In this document: one piece after another, positions 96 through 8,786 of the stretch
Position numbering within the stretch: the stretch's first letter is position 1
Layout of the letters: each line of letters starts with the position of its first letter
Source of the DNA: an uncultured archaeon
Lineage (GTDB): Archaea; Asgardarchaeota; Lokiarchaeia; Sigyniarchaeales; Promethearchaeaceae
Assembly (NCBI GenBank): GCA_964426185.1
Contig: CAYRPF010000081.1
Span: forward strand, 2,743-13,160
Direction of reading: 5' to 3'
Length of the DNA: 10,418 bases
Notes under the pieces: model-generated
What the model was told of the DNA's origin: nothing
The model's input: the letters and a program-made list of their open reading frames with translations, nothing else
Database searches by the model: none
Position numbers and translations under genes: made by a program

Positions 96-101
96 AAGGA
101 G
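96..101 (+). promoter_or_regulatory. Shine-Dalgarno site
   Basis: AAGGAG 6 nt upstream of ATG 108. Confidence 0.7.
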
Positions 102-107
102 AATAAT

Positions 108-3100
108 ATGTCTCTAAAAGAACAAGTCCCTAAAATATACGAACATTATGGTTTGACGGAAGAAGATTTAGATGTATATGTTGTTTTTCTGAAATATACT
201 CAATCGACTGTTTCAGAAGTGGCAGGAATTTTAAATAAATCCGATCCATCGAAAATTCAACCCATTGTTGATAAATTAGAACAGTTAAAATTTATTCATA
301 AAATTCCTGGTATTGTAGATCGCTATATTCCTCTGGAACCATACTTAAAATTGTTTGAAAAAGAAAATCTTCATTTTCGCGATGAAGTATCGGAAATTAA
401 AGATAATGTTTTGAGTGATCAAGCCTCTCGTTTCGAAAATTTAGAATCGAGCGAAAATTCAACTTCAGAACAAGTGAAATCATTTGTAGAAACACAAATT
501 TCGGAAATATTTCGGGAAAGCGATGATCAAGATGTTGAAAAGAAAAATTTGCTGGAAAATGCCACTAAAAGATTTACAGAAACGAGTAAAGTGGTAGAAC
601 AACAAATTGAACAATTTACCTTTAAAGCTCGTGATGATTTTGAGAATACTCGCCTAGCATATACCGAAAAAGTTCGTAAAACCACTGAAAATGCCAGGGA
701 TCGATTAAAAGACAGCTGCATTAGTTTGGAAAATGAAATTCAAACAGATGTATTCCACGCGCGTGATCGATTTCAAGATACCACCACACAAGTGGAAGGT
801 GAGATTCAGGCCATCTTGTTTGCCAGTAGAGATAGATATGAACAAACTTCACTTGATTTAGAAAAAGATTTGCACGAACACATAGATCATAATTATGAAC
901 AATTCAAATCTGCTGTTAATTCTCATGACACGCAGGTGAATGAAACCATTGATGGACATATCGGGAAGTTTAAAGCCGACAAAGAAATTTTTAATAATCA
1001 AATTGAAGAGTTCACTTCCACTCACAAAAATACCTATCAACAATTTGAAACCGATATCCACGCCATGATTGATACTCTCAACTCGGATTTAAAAAATATC
1101 GCGGAGGATTTCAAAAAAACTTATGATAACACAACTGTTGAGCACAAGAATATTTGGAATCAAATCGTTGATGATCTTTTAAAGGATTACGGATCACGGG
1201 TTCTAAACTTGGAAACTGAATGTAAGAAACAGTTAGATGAACACGTAGAACTTCATAAAGAAAATGTGTCCGAATTGCATCCGAAATTGCAAGAAACTTT
1301 GGAAAACTACTTGCTACGTATGAAAAATGTAGTTGATTCCTTAAAAGTCGAGTTTTCAGAACTATTGAAGAATCAAATTCAGAACAATCAAAATTTTACC
1401 TCCAAAATCCAAACTGACATTAAAGAAAAGATCGAAACTCGACACAGTGAATTAGCTGGGCAAGTACTCGCTTTTAAAAATTCTGCTGTGGAATTAATTG
1501 ACAATCTTAAAGATACCAGTGATAGATATGAAGGTTTGGCTAAAGATTTGGCTAAACGCGGCAGTGCATGGAAAGCCTTGTTATTTGGGAAGCATAAAAA
1601 ATTCTTGGATAATTATAATGAAATTCAAGAGCGAATTGGCAAGATATCAGGATCAATGAAAGCCACCTTTGAAGAAAGCACAGCTAATTATATTCAGCGA
1701 ACAGGAGAAACCACTTCTCAAATTAAAAAAGATGTAGATTCTATTGTGGCCAATGAAACCCAAAAGATGACCACCGATATTAACAACCTTGATGCAAAAC
1801 AAAATGAAACATTGGGTTTAGAATTGAACGATCTTGCTCATGATTTAAATGAAGAGACCACGTCACTCTTTCAACGTAATGTAGAACACTGTCAAACAAC
1901 TACCACTCAACTAAAAGATAAATTGGAATCGTCATTACATACTCATCACGATGATTTTGAACTGGCTTTTAATAAACATCGCCAGAATGTATTACAATTC
2001 AGTGATGAAACGAATTCTACTGCTAATTCCAAAATTGAGAAATGGTATAGTTCGATGGATTCTCGACATAATTCCGGTAAACAAAAAACTTCCGAAATAG
2101 TTCAAAATCATGATCAAAATGTTTTAGCCTATAAACAGCAAGTAACTGCCAATAACGATGAACATATCAGACTTTTAGCCACTGAAATGAGTGAATTTAA
2201 AAATCAACAAAGGAAAATCTTTGATAATCAACTCGGTATCATCCGTTCTGATTTTGATGGAACCAAGCAAACAATTTCCAAGAGTATTCATACTCAAATC
2301 GATTTAATCAAAAATGAAATTCAAAACTTGGATAACATGCAGCACCAGAAACTTGATGAGCAAATGGCTCTAGTCAAACAAGAATTTGAACATTTGGACA
2401 AACTGCAACATGAAAAGTTAGATCAGGAAATTGAAAAATTTACCAATGAAGTGGCTCAAATTAATAAAGTTCAGCAAGAGCAAATCGACCAACATATTGT
2501 CAAATTCAAAGAGATTATTGCCATTTTGGATTCCCAGCAAAAAGATGAGATCGATGGGCAAATTTCACTGGTGACGAATGAATTTCAACAACTGGAAAAT
2601 GATCTTCATGTGTTGTTGGAAAAGCGTAAGGCCGATTATCAAGAGAAACTAAACAATCTAAAAGCCGATCTCATTAACACTATGCATGAGAATATTCAAG
2701 ATACTAAAGATGCGATCGCAGACTTTACTTTAAATTTCATGAATTCGATTGATGAAGCCATTGAAATTGCCGAGGAAAATGTTAATGAACTTGCAGCTAT
2801 CAGCGATGCTTCTAATCAGATTATACCGTTGGGGCACAGTGCGACCTGGCATGTTTTTGGGACTCAATCTCTAATTGAATCTATTATTTCAGCTCTAAAA
2901 CGCACTAAAAGTACTATTACAATTATTACTCCCACAGTAGAACCAAAAGTACTGGAAGCTCTCTCACAAGTAGCTTATGAGAAAAAATCTGCCCGCTTTT
3001 TATATACCACAAATTGGGATTTAGGTAAATACGGACCGATTGTGGAGAAGATGAAAGTATTTGGAAACATTCAGTTTCGTAATTTGAAGAGTGCGAATGA

Positions 3101-3260
3101 TTTTTGGGCACTGAATAGAGACGGTGAGGAAATTGTTTTATGCCCTAAGGCAAATGATGAAAAAGACTTGATTGCGATTGTTTCAATTCAAGAGGGATAC
3201 GCCCAAATCTTTGGAAGTTTCATATATCCCATTTTTCAAGCCAATTCTCGCCCTATTTAA
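108..3260 (+). CDS. TrmB-like protein with giant coiled-coil insertion (wHTH, ~830-aa hendecad coiled coil, non-catalytic PLD-like effector domain)
   Basis: The N-terminus YGLTEEDLDVYVVFL..TVSEVAGIL..IVDKLEQLKFI..RYIPLEP fits the TrmB wHTH pattern. Residues 79-906 are helix-forming and E/Q/K/D-rich with a single Pro (P392). The C-terminus TWHVFG..IISALKRTKSTITIIT..RDGEEIVL fits the PLD-like TrmB middle domain and lacks HxKxxxxD. SD site present. Confidence 0.8.
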   Translation: MSLKEQVPKIYEHYGLTEEDLDVYVVFLKYTQSTVSEVAGILNKSDPSKIQPIVDKLEQLKFIHKIPGIVDRYIPLEPYLKLFEKENLHFRDEVSEIKDNVLSDQASRFENLESSENSTSEQVKSFVETQISEIFRESDDQDVEKKNLLENATKRFTETSKVVEQQIEQFTFKARDDFENTRLAYTEKVRKTTENARDRLKDSCISLENEIQTDVFHARDRFQDTTTQVEGEIQAILFASRDRYEQTSLDLEKDLHEHIDHNYEQFKSAVNSHDTQVNETIDGHIGKFKADKEIFNNQIEEFTSTHKNTYQQFETDIHAMIDTLNSDLKNIAEDFKKTYDNTTVEHKNIWNQIVDDLLKDYGSRVLNLETECKKQLDEHVELHKENVSELHPKLQETLENYLLRMKNVVDSLKVEFSELLKNQIQNNQNFTSKIQTDIKEKIETRHSELAGQVLAFKNSAVELIDNLKDTSDRYEGLAKDLAKRGSAWKALLFGKHKKFLDNYNEIQERIGKISGSMKATFEESTANYIQRTGETTSQIKKDVDSIVANETQKMTTDINNLDAKQNETLGLELNDLAHDLNEETTSLFQRNVEHCQTTTTQLKDKLESSLHTHHDDFELAFNKHRQNVLQFSDETNSTANSKIEKWYSSMDSRHNSGKQKTSEIVQNHDQNVLAYKQQVTANNDEHIRLLATEMSEFKNQQRKIFDNQLGIIRSDFDGTKQTISKSIHTQIDLIKNEIQNLDNMQHQKLDEQMALVKQEFEHLDKLQHEKLDQEIEKFTNEVAQINKVQQEQIDQHIVKFKEIIAILDSQQKDEIDGQISLVTNEFQQLENDLHVLLEKRKADYQEKLNNLKADLINTMHENIQDTKDAIADFTLNFMNSIDEAIEIAEENVNELAAISDASNQIIPLGHSATWHVFGTQSLIESIISALKRTKSTITIITPTVEPKVLEALSQVAYEKKSARFLYTTNWDLGKYGPIVEKMKVFGNIQFRNLKSANDFWALNRDGEEIVLCPKANDEKDLIAIVSIQEGYAQIFGSFIYPIFQANSRPI
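561..890 (+). repeat. Five in-frame 22-aa (66-nt) degenerate repeats, N-terminal arm (aa 152-261)
   Basis: ATKRFTETSKVVEQQIEQFTFK / ARDDFENTRLAYTEKVRKTTEN / ARDRLKDSCISLENEIQTDVFH / ARDRFQDTTTQVEGEIQAILFA / SRDRYEQTSLDLEKDLHEHIDH, starting at 561, 627, 693, 759, 825. Confidence 0.85.
2208..2603 (+). repeat. Five to six in-frame 22-aa degenerate repeats, C-terminal arm (aa 701-832)
   Basis: QRKIFDNQLGIIRSDFDGTKQT / ISKSIHTQIDLIKNEIQNLDNM / QHQKLDEQMALVKQEFEHLDKL / QHEKLDQEIEKFTNEVAQINKV / QQEQIDQHIVKFKEIIAILDSQ / QKDEIDGQISLVTNEFQQLEND. Confidence 0.85.
2915..3066 (+). repeat. 152-bp direct repeat, copy 1 (inside gene 1)
   Basis: Identical to 6043-6194 except C3036/T6164; offset 3128 bp. Confidence 0.95.
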
Positions 3261-3344: not shown

Positions 3345-3498
3345 TTTTCCTTCTATAGTTCTCTTCGAGCATTTTCCAGTGAAGTTCTCTAATTTTCCTT
3401 CTAAGATCGGCGATCTTCACAATGATTGGTTCACATTGAGAAAAATCGTCAAAAATCTTTACAATTAATTTCTTCAATTCCGTTCCAATTTTTTCATT
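3345..3498 (-). pseudogene. Probable remnant of the C-terminal half of a DUF47 (PhoU-like) phosphate transport regulator
   Basis: The frame reads NEKIGTELKKLIVKIFDDFSQCEPIIVKIADLRRKIRELHWKMLEENY, resembling the second helical repeat of DUF47 and complementing the N-terminal remnants at 6565-6821 and 8626-8771. Assigned by pattern only; boundaries approximate. Confidence 0.5.
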
Positions 3499-5489
3499 AT
3501 AAATAATTCTTTCAATAAATTTTCAAGATTTGGCACATCACGTGATTTTAGTACACTTCCTGTTTTCATTGAAAAGTTTAATTTATCTATAGTAGAATGT
3601 GTTTTTTGAACTTCATCAATGAACTTTGTAAATCTCTTTTTTGCTAAATATGATTGCCCTAAAAAGATATAACAAGCCATAAAAGGTGAAATATGCTTCA
3701 TCAAAATAGAGTAATCTCCAAAAACAGCTCGATCAAAGCCTTTAGAGAAAATTTCATCACTAAAACTGTTAAAAGCAGATAAAAATCCGCTAAACAAATT
3801 TTCATTTACATTCCATTGATCATCAAAAGTTTTTTTATAAAGTGGTAATCCATTTTCTGTTAGTATCATGATAAAAACTGGATCTTCCTCATGGATTTTT
3901 GGTTCTTCTTCAAATCCATTTCTGTATAACATAGAATTTATTTGCTTATCGATTTTAATTTTGTTTAATCTTTCTTCAATTGGGGCATTATCTGATCGCA
4001 ATTTTTTCCAAGCAGCTAAATTACTAACAAGTTCATCATTTTCATTTGAAATTTTTATGTTTAATTTTTTTAATCCATAGGTTTCTGCGATATTTTGCCC
4101 TTGGCTAAGAAATTTTCTTGCGGAATCAATATCTAAAGATAATAAAGCCAATTTAGATTTCAATAGTAATGTATCTCCCATAACCCAATAAGAGCCTTGA
4201 TTATCAGCAATTTTGAATAATCGATCAATAAGAAGATTTAATTCATTCAAAATTTCAGAATTCTTTGATGTTTTAAATTCAAGAACCAGCATTTCACATA
4301 GATTTACCATTGCACGAATTGTTATTTCTACAATAATAAACTCTTCTTCTGAAATTTCCTTTAAAATTCTCTGAGCTTCTCCCAAATCGCGAGTCCTTGA
4401 GCTTTTTCTTAGAAAAAGAGCTTTGATAAACCTATAAATTAAATTTATCTTTTTGTTATTTTCCTTTAAATTTATCTGTTCAATACGATCTAAACATTCT
4501 TTAGCAGACTTTAAATCACTTTTATTAAGATATGCATGGAATAATCCTTCTATTAAATTTGCAATTTCCGTTTGATTTCCCATTTTTTCTGCAATTATCA
4601 AACATTCCTTAAAACAGTTAATTGCTTTATCCCATTCTGCGAGATTAATGTAGTTGCATCCTAGGTTATTCAAAGCCATATAATAAACCATTTTTCGATT
4701 GTTTTCTTTGGCAAGTTTTATTGCATATTTTATATTATCTACTGCTTTGATGAGTTCTCCTTTTAGTGTGTAGATCATACCATATATGATAAAAACACTG
4801 ATCTTCCAATCTATAAATTGATATGGAACTTTAATTTCTGAGAATATTTTGTCTGCTCTTTTTAAAAGAACTAAAGCTTTATCATATTCTCCTAAAAAGG
4901 AATAAGGGCTAGCAGATAATATACAAGCTCCACCTAATCTCAATTTATCCCCAATTTCTTCATATATAGTAATCATTTCACTTGTAATGCTAATAAGTTC
5001 AGATATTTTTCCAAAATTATAATCAATCCATGCTTTTATTCTTAGGTATTGCCCACGTAATTCCATTTTTACAATGCGATCTTCTTTTGGGAGATTTTCT
5101 ATTAACTTTTTGATATTTTCTAATATTTCTGAACTTTTTTCTAAATTCCCTGTTTTTTGTAATAATTCGGTAAAAAGAAAGTATGAATTAATTTTATCTA
5201 TAGAATTCTCAATTTTATTAGCAATTTGATAAGATTTTTCTGCCGAAATTAATGCATCTTGGAATTTATCCTTTATCATTAGAATTTTGCCTATTAAATA
5301 ATAATATATCAATTGTGACTTAATGGATAATTCTTCAATTTGCTCTTGTGTTAATGAATTTAATGAATTTAAAGCAGAATCGAATTTTTCTTCTTTAAAA
5401 TATTGCTTAGCATCAATGATTTCTTTCGGAAATTTATTTCTTTTTTGCAGAAGTTTTTTCAAAAAAATCTTAAAAGATTTTTTAACCAT
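3474..5489 (-). CDS. TPR-repeat protein with C-terminal longin-like domain
   Basis: TPR-like motifs (ALNNLGCNYINLAEWDKAINCFKECLIIAEK; GMIYTLKGELIKAVDNIKYAIKLA). The C-terminal PVFIMILTENGLPLYKKTF..LFSGFLSAFNSFSDEIF..DRAVFGDYSILMK..ACYIF..LAKKRFTKFIDEV has the beta-beta-alpha-beta-beta-beta-alpha order of longin domains. ATG 5489 preferred over TTG 5504. Confidence 0.85.
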   Translation of the reverse strand: MVKKSFKIFLKKLLQKRNKFPKEIIDAKQYFKEEKFDSALNSLNSLTQEQIEELSIKSQLIYYYLIGKILMIKDKFQDALISAEKSYQIANKIENSIDKINSYFLFTELLQKTGNLEKSSEILENIKKLIENLPKEDRIVKMELRGQYLRIKAWIDYNFGKISELISITSEMITIYEEIGDKLRLGGACILSASPYSFLGEYDKALVLLKRADKIFSEIKVPYQFIDWKISVFIIYGMIYTLKGELIKAVDNIKYAIKLAKENNRKMVYYMALNNLGCNYINLAEWDKAINCFKECLIIAEKMGNQTEIANLIEGLFHAYLNKSDLKSAKECLDRIEQINLKENNKKINLIYRFIKALFLRKSSRTRDLGEAQRILKEISEEEFIIVEITIRAMVNLCEMLVLEFKTSKNSEILNELNLLIDRLFKIADNQGSYWVMGDTLLLKSKLALLSLDIDSARKFLSQGQNIAETYGLKKLNIKISNENDELVSNLAAWKKLRSDNAPIEERLNKIKIDKQINSMLYRNGFEEEPKIHEEDPVFIMILTENGLPLYKKTFDDQWNVNENLFSGFLSAFNSFSDEIFSKGFDRAVFGDYSILMKHISPFMACYIFLGQSYLAKKRFTKFIDEVQKTHSTIDKLNFSMKTGSVLKSRDVPNLENLLKELFIMKKLERN

Positions 5490-5971
5490 AATTTTTTTTC
5501 TCAATTAGAATATTTATATCTAATTAAAAATACCGATGAATTTTAAAATTCAAGGATCAATTTGGATACTCCTTTTTTTTATTCTATTTTCTTAATTTTC
5601 ATTTAATTTATGTATTTGAAGAGTGCTATCTGTTAAAACGAAGAAAAAGTTGTCTTTTTACATAAGAATCTTCTTTTGGATATTTTCTACAAAGTTTTCA
5701 TTCCTAAATACCCAAATTCTAAATTCTCCTTTGTTGGATATACTGGTGTGTTAAAATGTGAGATGAAAAAAGAAAAATGAGAAATCTTCTAATTTATCCT
5801 TCGACTTGAAAATTCATCAAAATACCTTTTTTTTCCTACTTATCGGTTAGTCTTTTAACAATTATTCCTTTTACTCATTCCGCTTAATGTCTGAGAAAAT
5901 GCCATGCGATGACATAGTTAAACGATTACTATGATTAAGTTCGTTAATTATCATCACGTTAAACCGTTAGT

Positions 5972-6004
5972 GCTTGATTGAGAAGAAATTTGATAGAGAA
6001 CTTG
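5972..6004 (-). repeat. 33-bp copy of the histidine kinase 3' end
   Basis: GCTTGATTGAGAAGAAATTTGATAGAGAACTTG matches 8799-8831 at 31/33 positions. Confidence 0.85.
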
Positions 6005-6251
6005 GGACACAGTGCGACTTGGCATGTTTTTAGAACTCAAGTTATTACAATTATTACTCCCACAGTAGAACCAAAAGTACTGGAAGCTCTCTCACAAGTA
6101 GCTTATGAGAAAAAATCTGCCCGCTTTTTATATACCACAAATTGGGATTTAGGTAAATACGGATCGATTGTGGAGAAGATGAAAGTATTTGGAACACATC
6201 TTTAGAAGTATTATATATCCCATCTTTCAAGCAAATTCACTTCTGATATAA
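6002..6251 (+). pseudogene. Internally deleted copy of the 3' end of gene 1
   Basis: 6002-6040 matches 2829-2867 (35/39); 6043-6194 matches 2915-3066 (151/152); 6195-6251 matches 3204-3260 (45/57, including the TAA). Net deletions of 45 and 137 nt. Confidence 0.93.
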
Positions 6252-6314: not shown

Positions 6315-6566
6315 TTATATGATAATCACTCCAATGATCCAATAGCACAGCATAGCCAACAATGCGGCTACTGGAAAAGTTATTATCCAACTTAACACCA
6401 TTTTCCTGAAGGATTTTTTATCTGGTCTTTCATCTTTTACCCTTCCCGCTCCAATTACCGTAAAGATTAAGATATGGCTACCAGAAACAGGTAGTCCTAA
6501 GATAATGGCTAAGAAAATGACAATGCTGGTAGAAATTTGAATGCTAAAGGCATCACTCGGGTGCAT
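6315..6566 (-). pseudogene. pit: 3' remnant of a PiT/PHO4-family inorganic phosphate transporter
   Basis: PSDAFSIQISTSIVIFLAIILGLPVSGSHILIFTVIGAG..MVLSWIITFPVAALL matches the PHO4 C-terminal signature (GxPVSxxH, WIITxP). Only ~83 aa of a normally >300-aa protein remain, joined directly to DUF47 sequence. Confidence 0.85.
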
Positions 6567-6821
6567 TTTCGAACTACAATCTCACACTCATCTACAATTT
6601 TATCCATCTTTTCTTTGGTAAATAACCTTTTAATAATTTGCGATCGGAGCTTATCTTGTTCTTTTTCAATTTTGATGGTTTTTTGAGATTCTTCTTTCTT
6701 TTTAGCGCCATCTTCGACTAAATATGCTTGAATTGCAGCGCTCATGGAATGAAATGCTTTTTCAGTTAAAATTGCATCTTCATTATACAAAGATTGCAAA
6801 CTTGGGATATTTTTTTTTCAT
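6565..6821 (-). pseudogene. 5' remnant of DUF47 (PhoU-like) phosphate transport regulator, copy A
   Basis: ATG at 6821 followed by a frameshift. TIKIEKEQDKLRSQIIKRLF..KMDKIVDECE matches DUF47 motifs (ExExD..I..L; DxIxD), but the segment usually between them appears deleted. Lies upstream of pit as in standard DUF47-pit operons. Confidence 0.8.
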
Positions 6822-6996: not shown

Positions 6997-7048
6997 TTTT
7001 TATTTTCAAAAAAGTAAAAGTTTTTATTTTCAAAAAAGTAAAAGTTTT
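6997..7048. repeat. Perfect 24-bp tandem duplication upstream of gdhA
   Basis: TTTTTATTTTCAAAAAAGTAAAAG at 6997-7020 and 7021-7044, followed by TTTT. Confidence 0.9.
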
Positions 7049-8602: not shown

Positions 8603-8625
8603 AGATTCTCATTGATATCGCGTGT

Positions 8626-8771
8626 GATCAGAGCTTATCTTGTTCTTTTTCCATTTTAATGGTTTTTTGGGCTTCTTCGTTCTTTTTTTTCATTTTCAAG
8701 TAGGTATGCTTGAACCGTAGCACTCATGAAGTGAAATGCTTGTTCAGTTAAACTTGGGATTTTTTTTTCAT
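8626..8771 (-). pseudogene. 5' remnant of DUF47, copy B
   Basis: Roughly 80-85% identical by eye to 6642-6821. Reads LTEQAFHFMSATVQAYLLEN..NEEAQKTIKMEKEQDKL*, with a 30-nt deletion, a frameshift in an A-run and a CGA->TGA nonsense change. Confidence 0.85.
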
Positions 8772-8786
8772 CATTCTTCTTCAGCT

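What the first reader, a model, noticed from the sequence alone, without database searches (positions are those of the whole stretch)
108..3260. TrmB chassis stretched into a mirror-symmetric ~60-nm hairpin rod: candidate DNA-to-membrane tether
Established: TrmB regulators join a wHTH to a PLD-like effector domain through one short helix. Seen: here the linker is ~830 aa, bounded by P78 and P907 (midpoint 492.5). A distinctly non-coiled-coil motif, KRGSAWKALLFGKHKKF (aa 483-499), sits exactly at that midpoint. Inference: the chain folds back into an antiparallel hairpin, as in Rad50 or chemoreceptor arms, putting the wHTH and effector domain together at one end and the motif at the tip. About 410 residues x 0.15 nm gives ~60 nm. 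It could act as a chromosome-membrane tether, molecular ruler, nucleoid scaffold or long-range sensing transcription factor. It has no Walker motifs, so it is not SMC, although pipelines may label it that way. I do not know of a characterised protein with this architecture.
Basis: partly seen in the sequence, partly recalled or inferred. Interest (0 to 1): 0.85.

Follow-up and report, generated by a model that had tools for sequence, protein, structure and literature searches.

The report
TrmB-headed 60-nm Asgard fold-back rod
This Asgard-archaeal gene encodes a relative of a DNA-binding regulator whose short connecting helix has grown into a stiff, mirror-symmetric rod about 60 nm long with a greasy, positively charged tip; it is conserved and appears to be expressed in a cultured species, and it looks like an undescribed structural strut, although its head lacks the usual DNA-reading residues.

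Summary
ORF 108-3260 (1050 aa, Lokiarchaeia) joins a TrmB winged helix to a TrmBL2-type, catalytically dead PLD-fold domain through an 829-aa helix with 11-residue periodicity.

Antiparallel pairing about the central motif is well supported. Arm lengths match across 114 homologues (r=0.9997), indels are mirror-paired, covariation peaks on the tip anti-diagonal, and the AlphaFold model is a hairpin turning at 484-495.

Orthologues occur in 107 of 121 class genomes searched. The Promethearchaeum syntrophicum orthologue is very probably the TrmB protein ranked 10th of 732 by identification score (0.15% abundance) in a published proteome.

Two cautions. (1) The recognition-helix R-x-Y motif of TrmB and TrmBL2 is absent in 117/117 orthologues, so DNA binding is doubtful. 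(2) The symmetry equally fits an extended, domain-swapped 120-nm dimer, the ancestral TrmB geometry, which tip-less paralogues probably use.

Best reading: a fixed-length strut with a membrane-seeking tip and a scaffolding head. The full DNA-to-membrane tether is about 20% likely. I found no paper describing the family. This scan found it before in several other Asgard genomes.

The parts
108..3260 (+). CDS, 1050 aa: winged helix, hendecad arm 1, tip, hendecad arm 2, PLD-fold domain
97..101 (+). Shine-Dalgarno-like AGGAG, 6 nt before the ATG; homologues begin with the same N-terminus
129..341 (+). TrmB-type winged helix (aa 8-78) with an acidic, variable recognition helix lacking R-x-Y
   Evidence: Pfam PF01978; family profile hits 3qph E 2e-9 and 5bpd E 3e-8
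342..1553 (+). Arm 1 (aa 79-482), hendecad amphipathic helix
   Evidence: period 3.66; helical in the AlphaFold model apart from 256-277
591..872 (+). Arm-1 expansion zone (about aa 162-255), 22-residue repeats
   Evidence: paired indels; lag-22 self-identity 0.23-0.24
1140..1382 (+). Conserved mid-rod block of arm 1 (about aa 345-425), His-containing, mirrored by the block at 1785-1997
1554..1604 (+). Tip (aa 483-499): Gly-flanked, basic and aromatic; the turn of the hairpin; candidate membrane-binding helix
1605..2825 (+). Arm 2 (aa 500-906), hendecad amphipathic helix, antiparallel partner of arm 1
   Evidence: period 3.67; covariation; helical in the model apart from 696-720
1785..1997 (+). 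Conserved mid-rod block of arm 2 (about aa 560-630; invariant C595 and H613)
2280..2597 (+). Arm-2 expansion zone (about aa 725-830), mirror of the arm-1 zone
   Evidence: lag-22 self-identity 0.29-0.32
2826..3257 (+). TrmBL2-type PLD-fold C-terminal domain (aa 907-1050); no HKD motif, no sugar-binding barrel

Best explanation
A conserved structural protein of Lokiarchaeia built from a TrmBL2-like chassis. Well supported: the ancestral dimerisation helix has been extended by 11- and 22-residue repeats into two arms of equal length that pack antiparallel, giving a stiff rod of about 414 residues per arm (about 61 nm; about 39-62 nm across the family). Inferred (about 70%): in this subfamily one chain folds back at the Gly-flanked tip, so the winged helix and the PLD-fold domain form one head, and rods pair through the heads or side by side as four-helix bundles. 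Inferred (about 50%): the tip, the most basic and aromatic patch on a strongly acidic rod, inserts into or sticks to the inner face of the membrane. Inferred: the head is mainly an oligomerisation or partner-binding module rather than a sequence-specific DNA reader. The protein therefore acts as a fixed-length strut that holds its head, and whatever binds it (a protein scaffold, or chromatin indirectly), about 60 nm from the membrane, or that spans about 120 nm as a head-to-head pair with a tip at each end.
For: Geometry: arm lengths co-vary in 114 homologues, r=0.9997, with a constant offset of 8 aa in the closest subfamily and steps mostly of 11 or 22 aa. Indels are equal in size and mirrored about the tip, for example 11 aa at -51/+48, 11 aa at -157/+160 and 44 aa at -260/+264. 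Mutual information peaks on i+j of about 682 (tip at 339-343 in a 751-aa reference) in three separate arm segments, and charge anti-correlation peaks at i+j=680, z -3.5. The AlphaFold model (pLDDT 74.7) turns at 484-495 and superposes on hairpins centred at 487-489: chemoreceptor 2ch7 over 318-658 and the 11-mer hairpin 4ke2 over 385-589. The hydrophobic phase jumps about 95-120 degrees at the tip in most members. Tip: net +2 to +7 with at least 2 aromatics in all 117, on arms averaging -34; top lipid-binding discriminant of the rod, 2.27. Structural role: found in 107 of 121 class genomes searched, beside aIF5B/eS6 or Fae-like housekeeping genes. [quoted passage not shown]
Against: There is no direct evidence of membrane binding. 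The tip discriminant is driven by charge (hydrophobic moment only 0.31), and a basic-aromatic patch could bind nucleic acid or protein instead. The fixed tip window is strictly the most basic 18-mer of the rod in only 28% of members. Many Asgard paralogues have no such tip. Tip pLDDT is only 51-57 and pTM 0.32, and a monomer prediction must fold back whatever the true state, as it also did for a tip-less paralogue. No partner gene is co-conserved. The proteome result is a single replicate and the locus-tag match is by interpolation.
Confidence: 0.5

Rival explanations
1. Direct chromosome-to-membrane tether: the winged helix binds DNA non-specifically, the tip binds the membrane, and the rod fixes the gap between nucleoid and membrane.
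For: The winged-helix fold and wing are intact. TrmBL2, the closest structural relative, coats DNA non-specifically (PMC4877046). Loki and Heimdall cells show condensed DNA separated from the ribosome signal by 50-280 nm (PMC8776820). The tip composition fits membrane binding.
Against: TrmB Tyr50 is important for DNA binding and is conserved in TrmB, TrmBL1, TrmBL2 and TrmBL3 (PMC4158304). The R-x-Y motif is present in 3qph, 5bpd and all six short TrmBs checked from this genome and MK-D1 but in 0 of 117 orthologues and 0 of 69 other rods. The turn plus recognition helix is never net positive in orthologues (mean -3.9), and it tolerates insertions.
Confidence: 0.2
2. Extended, domain-swapped antiparallel dimer: two chains run past each other with a two-fold axis at the central motif, giving a rod of about 120 nm with a head at each end and the two basic motifs in the middle. 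Head-to-head PLD-domain dimerisation could chain such units into filaments. A switch between closed hairpin and open dimer is possible.
For: It predicts the same arm symmetry and i+j covariation as the hairpin. It is the ancestral geometry: the TrmB helix pairs F81/I91' and F84/L88' and is described as a domain-swapped dimer (PMC4158304). Tip-less paralogues look built this way: their length changes are single central indels (gaps confined to columns 450-550), the hendecad phase runs through the midpoint in most, and AlphaFold must melt 75 residues (466-540, pLDDT 22-49) to fold one back.
Against: In this subfamily the turn is short (12 residues), flanked by G485 and G494 (at least 90% conserved), shifts the helical phase, and varies like a loop across sister lineages, with Pro-rich versions.
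Confidence: 0.2
3. Long-range sensing transcription factor: the tip senses a membrane state or partner and signals along the rod, as in a chemoreceptor, to switch DNA binding at the head.
For: TrmB ancestry, a chemoreceptor-like hairpin shape, and conserved mid-rod blocks with His and Cys that could be regulatory sites.
Against: The recognition motif is lost and there is no sugar-binding subdomain (only 2f5t 110-241 aligns). Rod length varies freely from about 39 to 62 nm, and no regulon-like neighbourhood is conserved. The apparent abundance is of the same order as metabolic enzymes.
Confidence: 0.08
4. SMC/Rad50-like ATPase motor, or an active PLD-family nuclease on a long arm.
For: Foldseek and VIA give coiled-coil matches to MukB and Rad50, and PLD-fold matches to Nuc and Zucchini.
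Against: No Walker A motif, the heads are not ABC-type, the repeat is hendecad rather than heptad, and HxKxxxxD is absent in 0/117 and 0/34 sequences.
Confidence: 0.02

Closest known systems
TrmBL2 (PF0496/TK0471; PDB 5bpd, 5box, 5bpi, 5bqt), Thermococcales chromatin protein
   Same: Same domain order: winged helix, amphipathic helix, single PLD-fold C-terminal domain without a sugar-binding barrel (Foldseek top hit E 1e-6, VIA Z 15.1).
   Different: The linker is 829 aa rather than one short dimerisation helix, it has a basic-aromatic tip, the R-x-Y recognition motif is absent, and DNA coating is not shown.
TrmB (PF1743; PDB 3qph, 2f5t), sugar-sensing regulator
   Same: Winged helix and the first effector subdomain (Z 17.4, rmsd 1.9 over 130 aa); antiparallel, two-fold symmetric pairing of the linker helix.
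   Different: No second subdomain, which carries the sugar contacts Asn305-Glu326; no Tyr50 equivalent; giant rod.
Chemoreceptor cytoplasmic hairpin (2ch7, 3g67, 1qu7) and Rad50/SMC arms
   Same: Long antiparallel helical hairpin with a specialised tip; lengths change by paired symmetric indels, as known for chemoreceptor classes (own knowledge).
   Different: No sequence homology found; 11-residue rather than 7-residue repeat; no transmembrane, HAMP or ATPase parts; different head and tip.
Bacterial DNA-envelope anchors RacA and Noc (own knowledge, not tested by search)
   Same: Functional analogy only: a helix-turn-helix module combined with a coiled coil or an amphipathic membrane helix.
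   Different: No homology shown; those proteins bind defined DNA sites and lack a fold-back rod.

Membership tests
TrmB family (PF01978) | N-terminal TrmB-type winged helix | tested here: met
   PF01978 30 bits, cut-off 25.6; family profile hits 3qph at E 2e-9
TrmB family (PF01978) | C-terminal PLD-fold domain (PF11495-like) | tested here: met
   VIA Z 17.4, 16.5 and 15.1 to 2f5t, 3qph and 5bpd; PF11495 hits 11 of 34 family members, best E 3e-5, but not the query itself
TrmB/TrmBL1 sugar sensors | Second effector subdomain carrying the sugar-binding residues | tested here: not met
   The protein ends after the first subdomain; only 2f5t 110-241 aligns; contacts listed in PMC4158304
TrmB/TrmBL2 DNA binders | Recognition-helix Tyr50 (R-x-Y motif) | tested here: not met
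   0 of 117 orthologues and 0 of 69 other rods; present in 3qph, 5bpd and six short Loki TrmBs
TrmBL2 | Short dimerisation helix and about 264 aa total length | tested here: not met
   829-aa linker, 1050 aa in all
TrmBL2 | Tetramer that coats DNA non-specifically | not testable with these tools
   Needs biochemistry
SMC/Rad50/MukB | Split ABC ATPase head with Walker A and B motifs | tested here: not met
   No GxxxxGK[ST]; termini are a winged helix and a PLD fold
Active PLD-superfamily enzymes (Nuc, Zucchini) | HxKxxxxD catalytic motif | tested here: not met
   0/117 and 0/34
Methyl-accepting chemoreceptors | MCP signalling-domain sequence signature and heptad repeat | tested here: not met
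   No Pfam or NCBIfam MCP hit; period 3.67, not 3.5
Membrane-targeting amphipathic helices | Lipid binding by a basic-aromatic helix | tested here: inconclusive
   Composition fits (discriminant 2.27, top of the rod) but the hydrophobic moment is low, 0.31; binding needs an assay

The most novel reading that the evidence does not exclude
Asgard archaea have turned a TrmB-type regulator into a family of length-calibrated struts. Tipped hairpins, like this one, hold chromatin or a scaffold at a set distance from the membrane, while tip-less two-headed paralogues polymerise end to end. [quoted passage not shown]
Probability: 0.12. Interest if true: 0.92.

Novelty: new variant of a known kind. Interest (0 to 1): 0.64.

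Why it matters
How Asgard cells organise their interior without an S-layer, and why their DNA looks condensed and set apart from the ribosomes, is an open question in eukaryogenesis. This family is widespread in the phylum, near-universal in the Loki order, has a clearly predicted geometry and length, and has orthologues in the cultured or enriched Loki strains (QEE17539.1, UYP44989.1, MCF2139977.1). Localisation, EM and liposome tests are therefore feasible now. It is also a clean case of a transcription-factor chassis apparently becoming a structural rod by symmetric repeat expansion.

Tried and rejected
- Complex prediction of two copies of aa 335-650 gave no verdict (score 0.25, mark 0.42) and is not used as evidence either way.
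- The one RNA run holding the MK-D1 orthologue is a single 36-kb contig at flat depth, so it says nothing about transcription.
- Single-sequence PDB search with the C-terminal domain found nothing. The N-terminal search gave only chance-level hits, including a neurotoxin light chain at E 0.06, rejected as noise.
- Pfam Apolipoprotein (41 bits, cut-off 90) and NCBIfam MCR-10 (19 bits, cut-off 1250) reflect repeat or composition bias.
- Atlas search of the tip region gave leads under 0.9 only. The promoter scan was at chance level.
- Covariation within the 751-aa subfamily alone (effective n 16) and in the tip-less family (effective n 22) was weak, though centred near the expected diagonal.
- The careful tree did not finish; the quick tree is used descriptively only, with no root or order of events claimed.
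- Literature searches (Asgard+TrmB, Asgard+hendecad, hendecad+archaea and others) found no description. A hendecad survey I recall (J Struct Biol 2023) was not held under the DOI I tried, so prior mention there is not excluded.
- An idea that rod length matches protrusion width could not be checked; the review gave no diameters.
Full report
Observation. The window encodes one 1050-aa ORF at 108-3260 with an AGGAG box upstream. P78, P907, the motif at aa 483-499 and the lack of a Walker A motif are as described, and there is no transmembrane segment. Pfam TrmB covers aa 13-78. The last 145 residues match the PLD-fold domain of TrmB and TrmBL2: weakly by profile (2f5t E 0.04; PF11495 in 11 of 34 relatives) and clearly by fold (TrmBL2 top Foldseek hit; VIA Z 17.4 to 2f5t and 15.1 to 5bpd). 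Only the first effector subdomain is present, as in TrmBL2; the sugar contacts of TrmB lie in the missing second subdomain (PMC4158304). The HxKxxxxD motif is absent throughout. The linker has an 11-residue hydrophobic repeat (period 3.66/3.67).

Source and spread. A protein search gave 236 homologues; the named ones among the 120 listed are almost all Promethearchaeota/Loki. Orthologues lie in Ca. Harpocratesius repetitus (79%), Ca. Lokiarchaeum ossiferum (54%) and Promethearchaeum syntrophicum (45%). A family profile finds 107 of 121 class genomes searched, and 37 of 40 high-quality ones; it missed the five genomes from other orders at that strict cut-off. The C-terminal domain hits 205 of 301 genomes across the phylum, mostly at the end of 550-1800-aa frames; 36 of 40 fetched examples also carry the N-terminal winged helix, and nearly all have the 3.66 period. 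Complete genomes carry one to three long members. The gene sits divergent from aIF5B near eS6 in the closest relatives and next to an Fae-like gene in others; no dedicated partner is co-conserved.

Test of symmetry. With anchors at P78, the tip and W914, arm lengths in 114 homologues correlate at r=0.9997; in the closest subfamily the offset is always 8 while arms range from 264 to 414 aa, mostly in steps of 11 or 22. Across 19 length classes the SD of the difference is 1.8, against at least 20 in 100,000 permutations; the classes are kin, so this is descriptive. Pairwise alignments place equal-sized indels at mirrored distances from the tip, in zones that keep 22-residue self-similarity. Mutual information summed along anti-diagonals peaks at i+j = 678-689 in a 751-aa reference whose tip is at 339-343, and three separate arm segments each peak at 681-684. 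Charge anti-correlation peaks at 680. The AlphaFold model turns at 484-495 and superposes on known hairpins centred at 487-489; alignments that span both termini suggest the two end domains sit together in the model. Antiparallel pairing of arm 1 with arm 2 is therefore well supported (about 95%). At 0.1485 nm per residue the rod is about 61 nm here and about 39-62 nm in the family.

Hairpin or extended dimer. None of those tests separates an intramolecular hairpin from two chains running antiparallel with a two-fold axis at the midpoint. The latter is the geometry of TrmB itself (F81/I91', F84/L88'; PMC4158304). The paralogues are informative. Many, including a 943-aa one in this genome, have no break at the midpoint, keep hendecad phase through it, and change length by one central indel. 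AlphaFold pairs the halves of such a paralogue antiparallel only by melting 75 residues at pLDDT 22-49, as expected if interchain contacts are being satisfied within one chain. By contrast this subfamily has a 12-residue turn between conserved glycines, a phase jump of about 95-120 degrees in most members, and loop-like variation across sister lineages. I put the hairpin at about 70% for this protein and the extended form at about 25%. In a quick tree of the end domains, the query falls in a group of 600-1050-aa members (SH 96) holding most of the basic-aromatic tips, apart from most tip-less members.

The tip. It carries net +2 to +7 and at least two aromatics in all 117 orthologues, on arms averaging -34. 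It has the highest lipid-binding discriminant of the rod (2.27; 1.6% of windows exceed 1.34), driven mostly by charge. This fits membrane binding by analogy with known amphipathic anchors (own knowledge), but nucleic-acid or protein binding is not excluded.

The head. TrmB Tyr50 matters for DNA binding and is conserved across TrmB, TrmBL1, TrmBL2 and TrmBL3. The R-x-Y motif is seen in 3qph, 5bpd and all six short TrmBs checked from this genome and MK-D1, but in none of 117 orthologues or 69 other rods. The turn plus recognition helix is never net positive and tolerates insertions. What is conserved is the wing, the hinge into arm 1, the head-proximal arm ends and the PLD domain, a pattern that suits a packing or oligomerisation module. 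Direct DNA binding is possible but doubtful (about 35%).

Expression. The MK-D1 orthologue is QEE17539.1, named 'TrmB family transcriptional regulator'. Flanking accession-to-tag offsets (QEE17318 = DSAG12_03151; QEE17964, the pyruvate phosphate dikinase, taken as 03802) place it at DSAG12_03372-03377, and no other TrmB domain lies near it. DSAG12_03376, with that same name, ranks 10th of 732 proteins by identification score with NSAF 0.15%, against 0.24% for the dikinase (PMC11284389, single replicate). The score favours long proteins, and 0.15% is near the mean for 732 proteins. Another study gives all 'TrmBL' proteins under 0.1% of Loki proteomes against 8-21% for histones in three of four datasets (bioRxiv 10.64898/2026.07.02.735847); whether it counted this protein is unknown, but it argues against a bulk chromatin coat.

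Verdict. The architecture is real, conserved and, in the literature I could search, undescribed. It works most probably as a fixed-length strut with a membrane-seeking tip and a scaffolding head (0.5). The direct DNA-to-membrane tether is a minority reading (0.2), as is the extended two-headed dimer (0.2). It is homologous to TrmBL2 and TrmB but fails their defining features (short helix, Tyr50, sugar site), and it is not an SMC protein, an active PLD enzyme or a chemoreceptor. This scan noted the family in several other Asgard genomes; those notes are unchecked and were not counted as support.

Noticed in passing
window 6002-6251 (+), ORF 5978-6205: Decayed copy of the 3' end of the rod gene in blocks matching 2829-2865, 2915-3066 (99% over 152 nt) and 3204-3260, with internal deletions. 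With remnants of a PiT transporter (6315-6566), DUF47 (6509-6799, 8623-8786) and kinase 3' ends, it marks a local duplication or rearrangement; Harpocratesius repetitus has an intact rod-PiT-DUF47-like-large ORF block instead.
   Followed up: partly
window 3474-5504 (-): 676-aa TPR protein lying between the rod gene and its 3' duplicate; its C-terminal region looks longin-like by eye. It is not beside the orthologue in H. repetitus.
   Followed up: no
L073:5032-7863 (G000:C55): Second rod paralogue in this genome, 943 aa, no central tip, continuous hendecad phase; found in only 7 of 121 order genomes with this query, also present in Loki-B35 and H. repetitus but not found in MK-D1.
   Followed up: partly
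G000:C76:5088-7454; L257:2020-4272 (MK-D1 DSAG12_03151): Third paralogue type: winged helix, helical linker of about 250 aa, internal PLD-fold domain and a long Pro/Lys-rich tail; the MK-D1 copy also has a small N-terminal Cys-containing domain.
   Followed up: no
G000:C30:151-2385 and G000:C3:76913-77605: Further PLD-fold domains of this type without a detected winged helix, including a tandem gene pair conserved in MK-D1 and H. repetitus.
   Followed up: no
window 1140-1382 and 1785-1997: Mirror-image conserved mid-rod blocks with invariant His, Cys and Pro (H318, P392, C595, H613): a possible partner-binding, metal-binding or kink site.
   Followed up: partly
window 873-938 and 2193-2267 (aa 256-277 and 696-720): Two mirrored non-helical stretches in the AlphaFold model: either a real elbow or an artefact of alignment gaps beside the expansion zones.
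   Followed up: no
L035, L037, L038, L048, L058, L034 (other Asgard families): Rod members whose midpoint is a Pro/Gly-rich low-complexity loop, a third tip type. Lengths in the family reach 1907 aa.
   Followed up: partly
ESM Atlas cluster, row 5: 687-aa TrmB proteins, commonest in Bathyarchaeota: long TrmBs may exist outside Asgard; architecture not examined.
   Followed up: no
window 6997-7044: Exact 24-nt tandem duplication upstream of the glutamate dehydrogenase gene.
   Followed up: no
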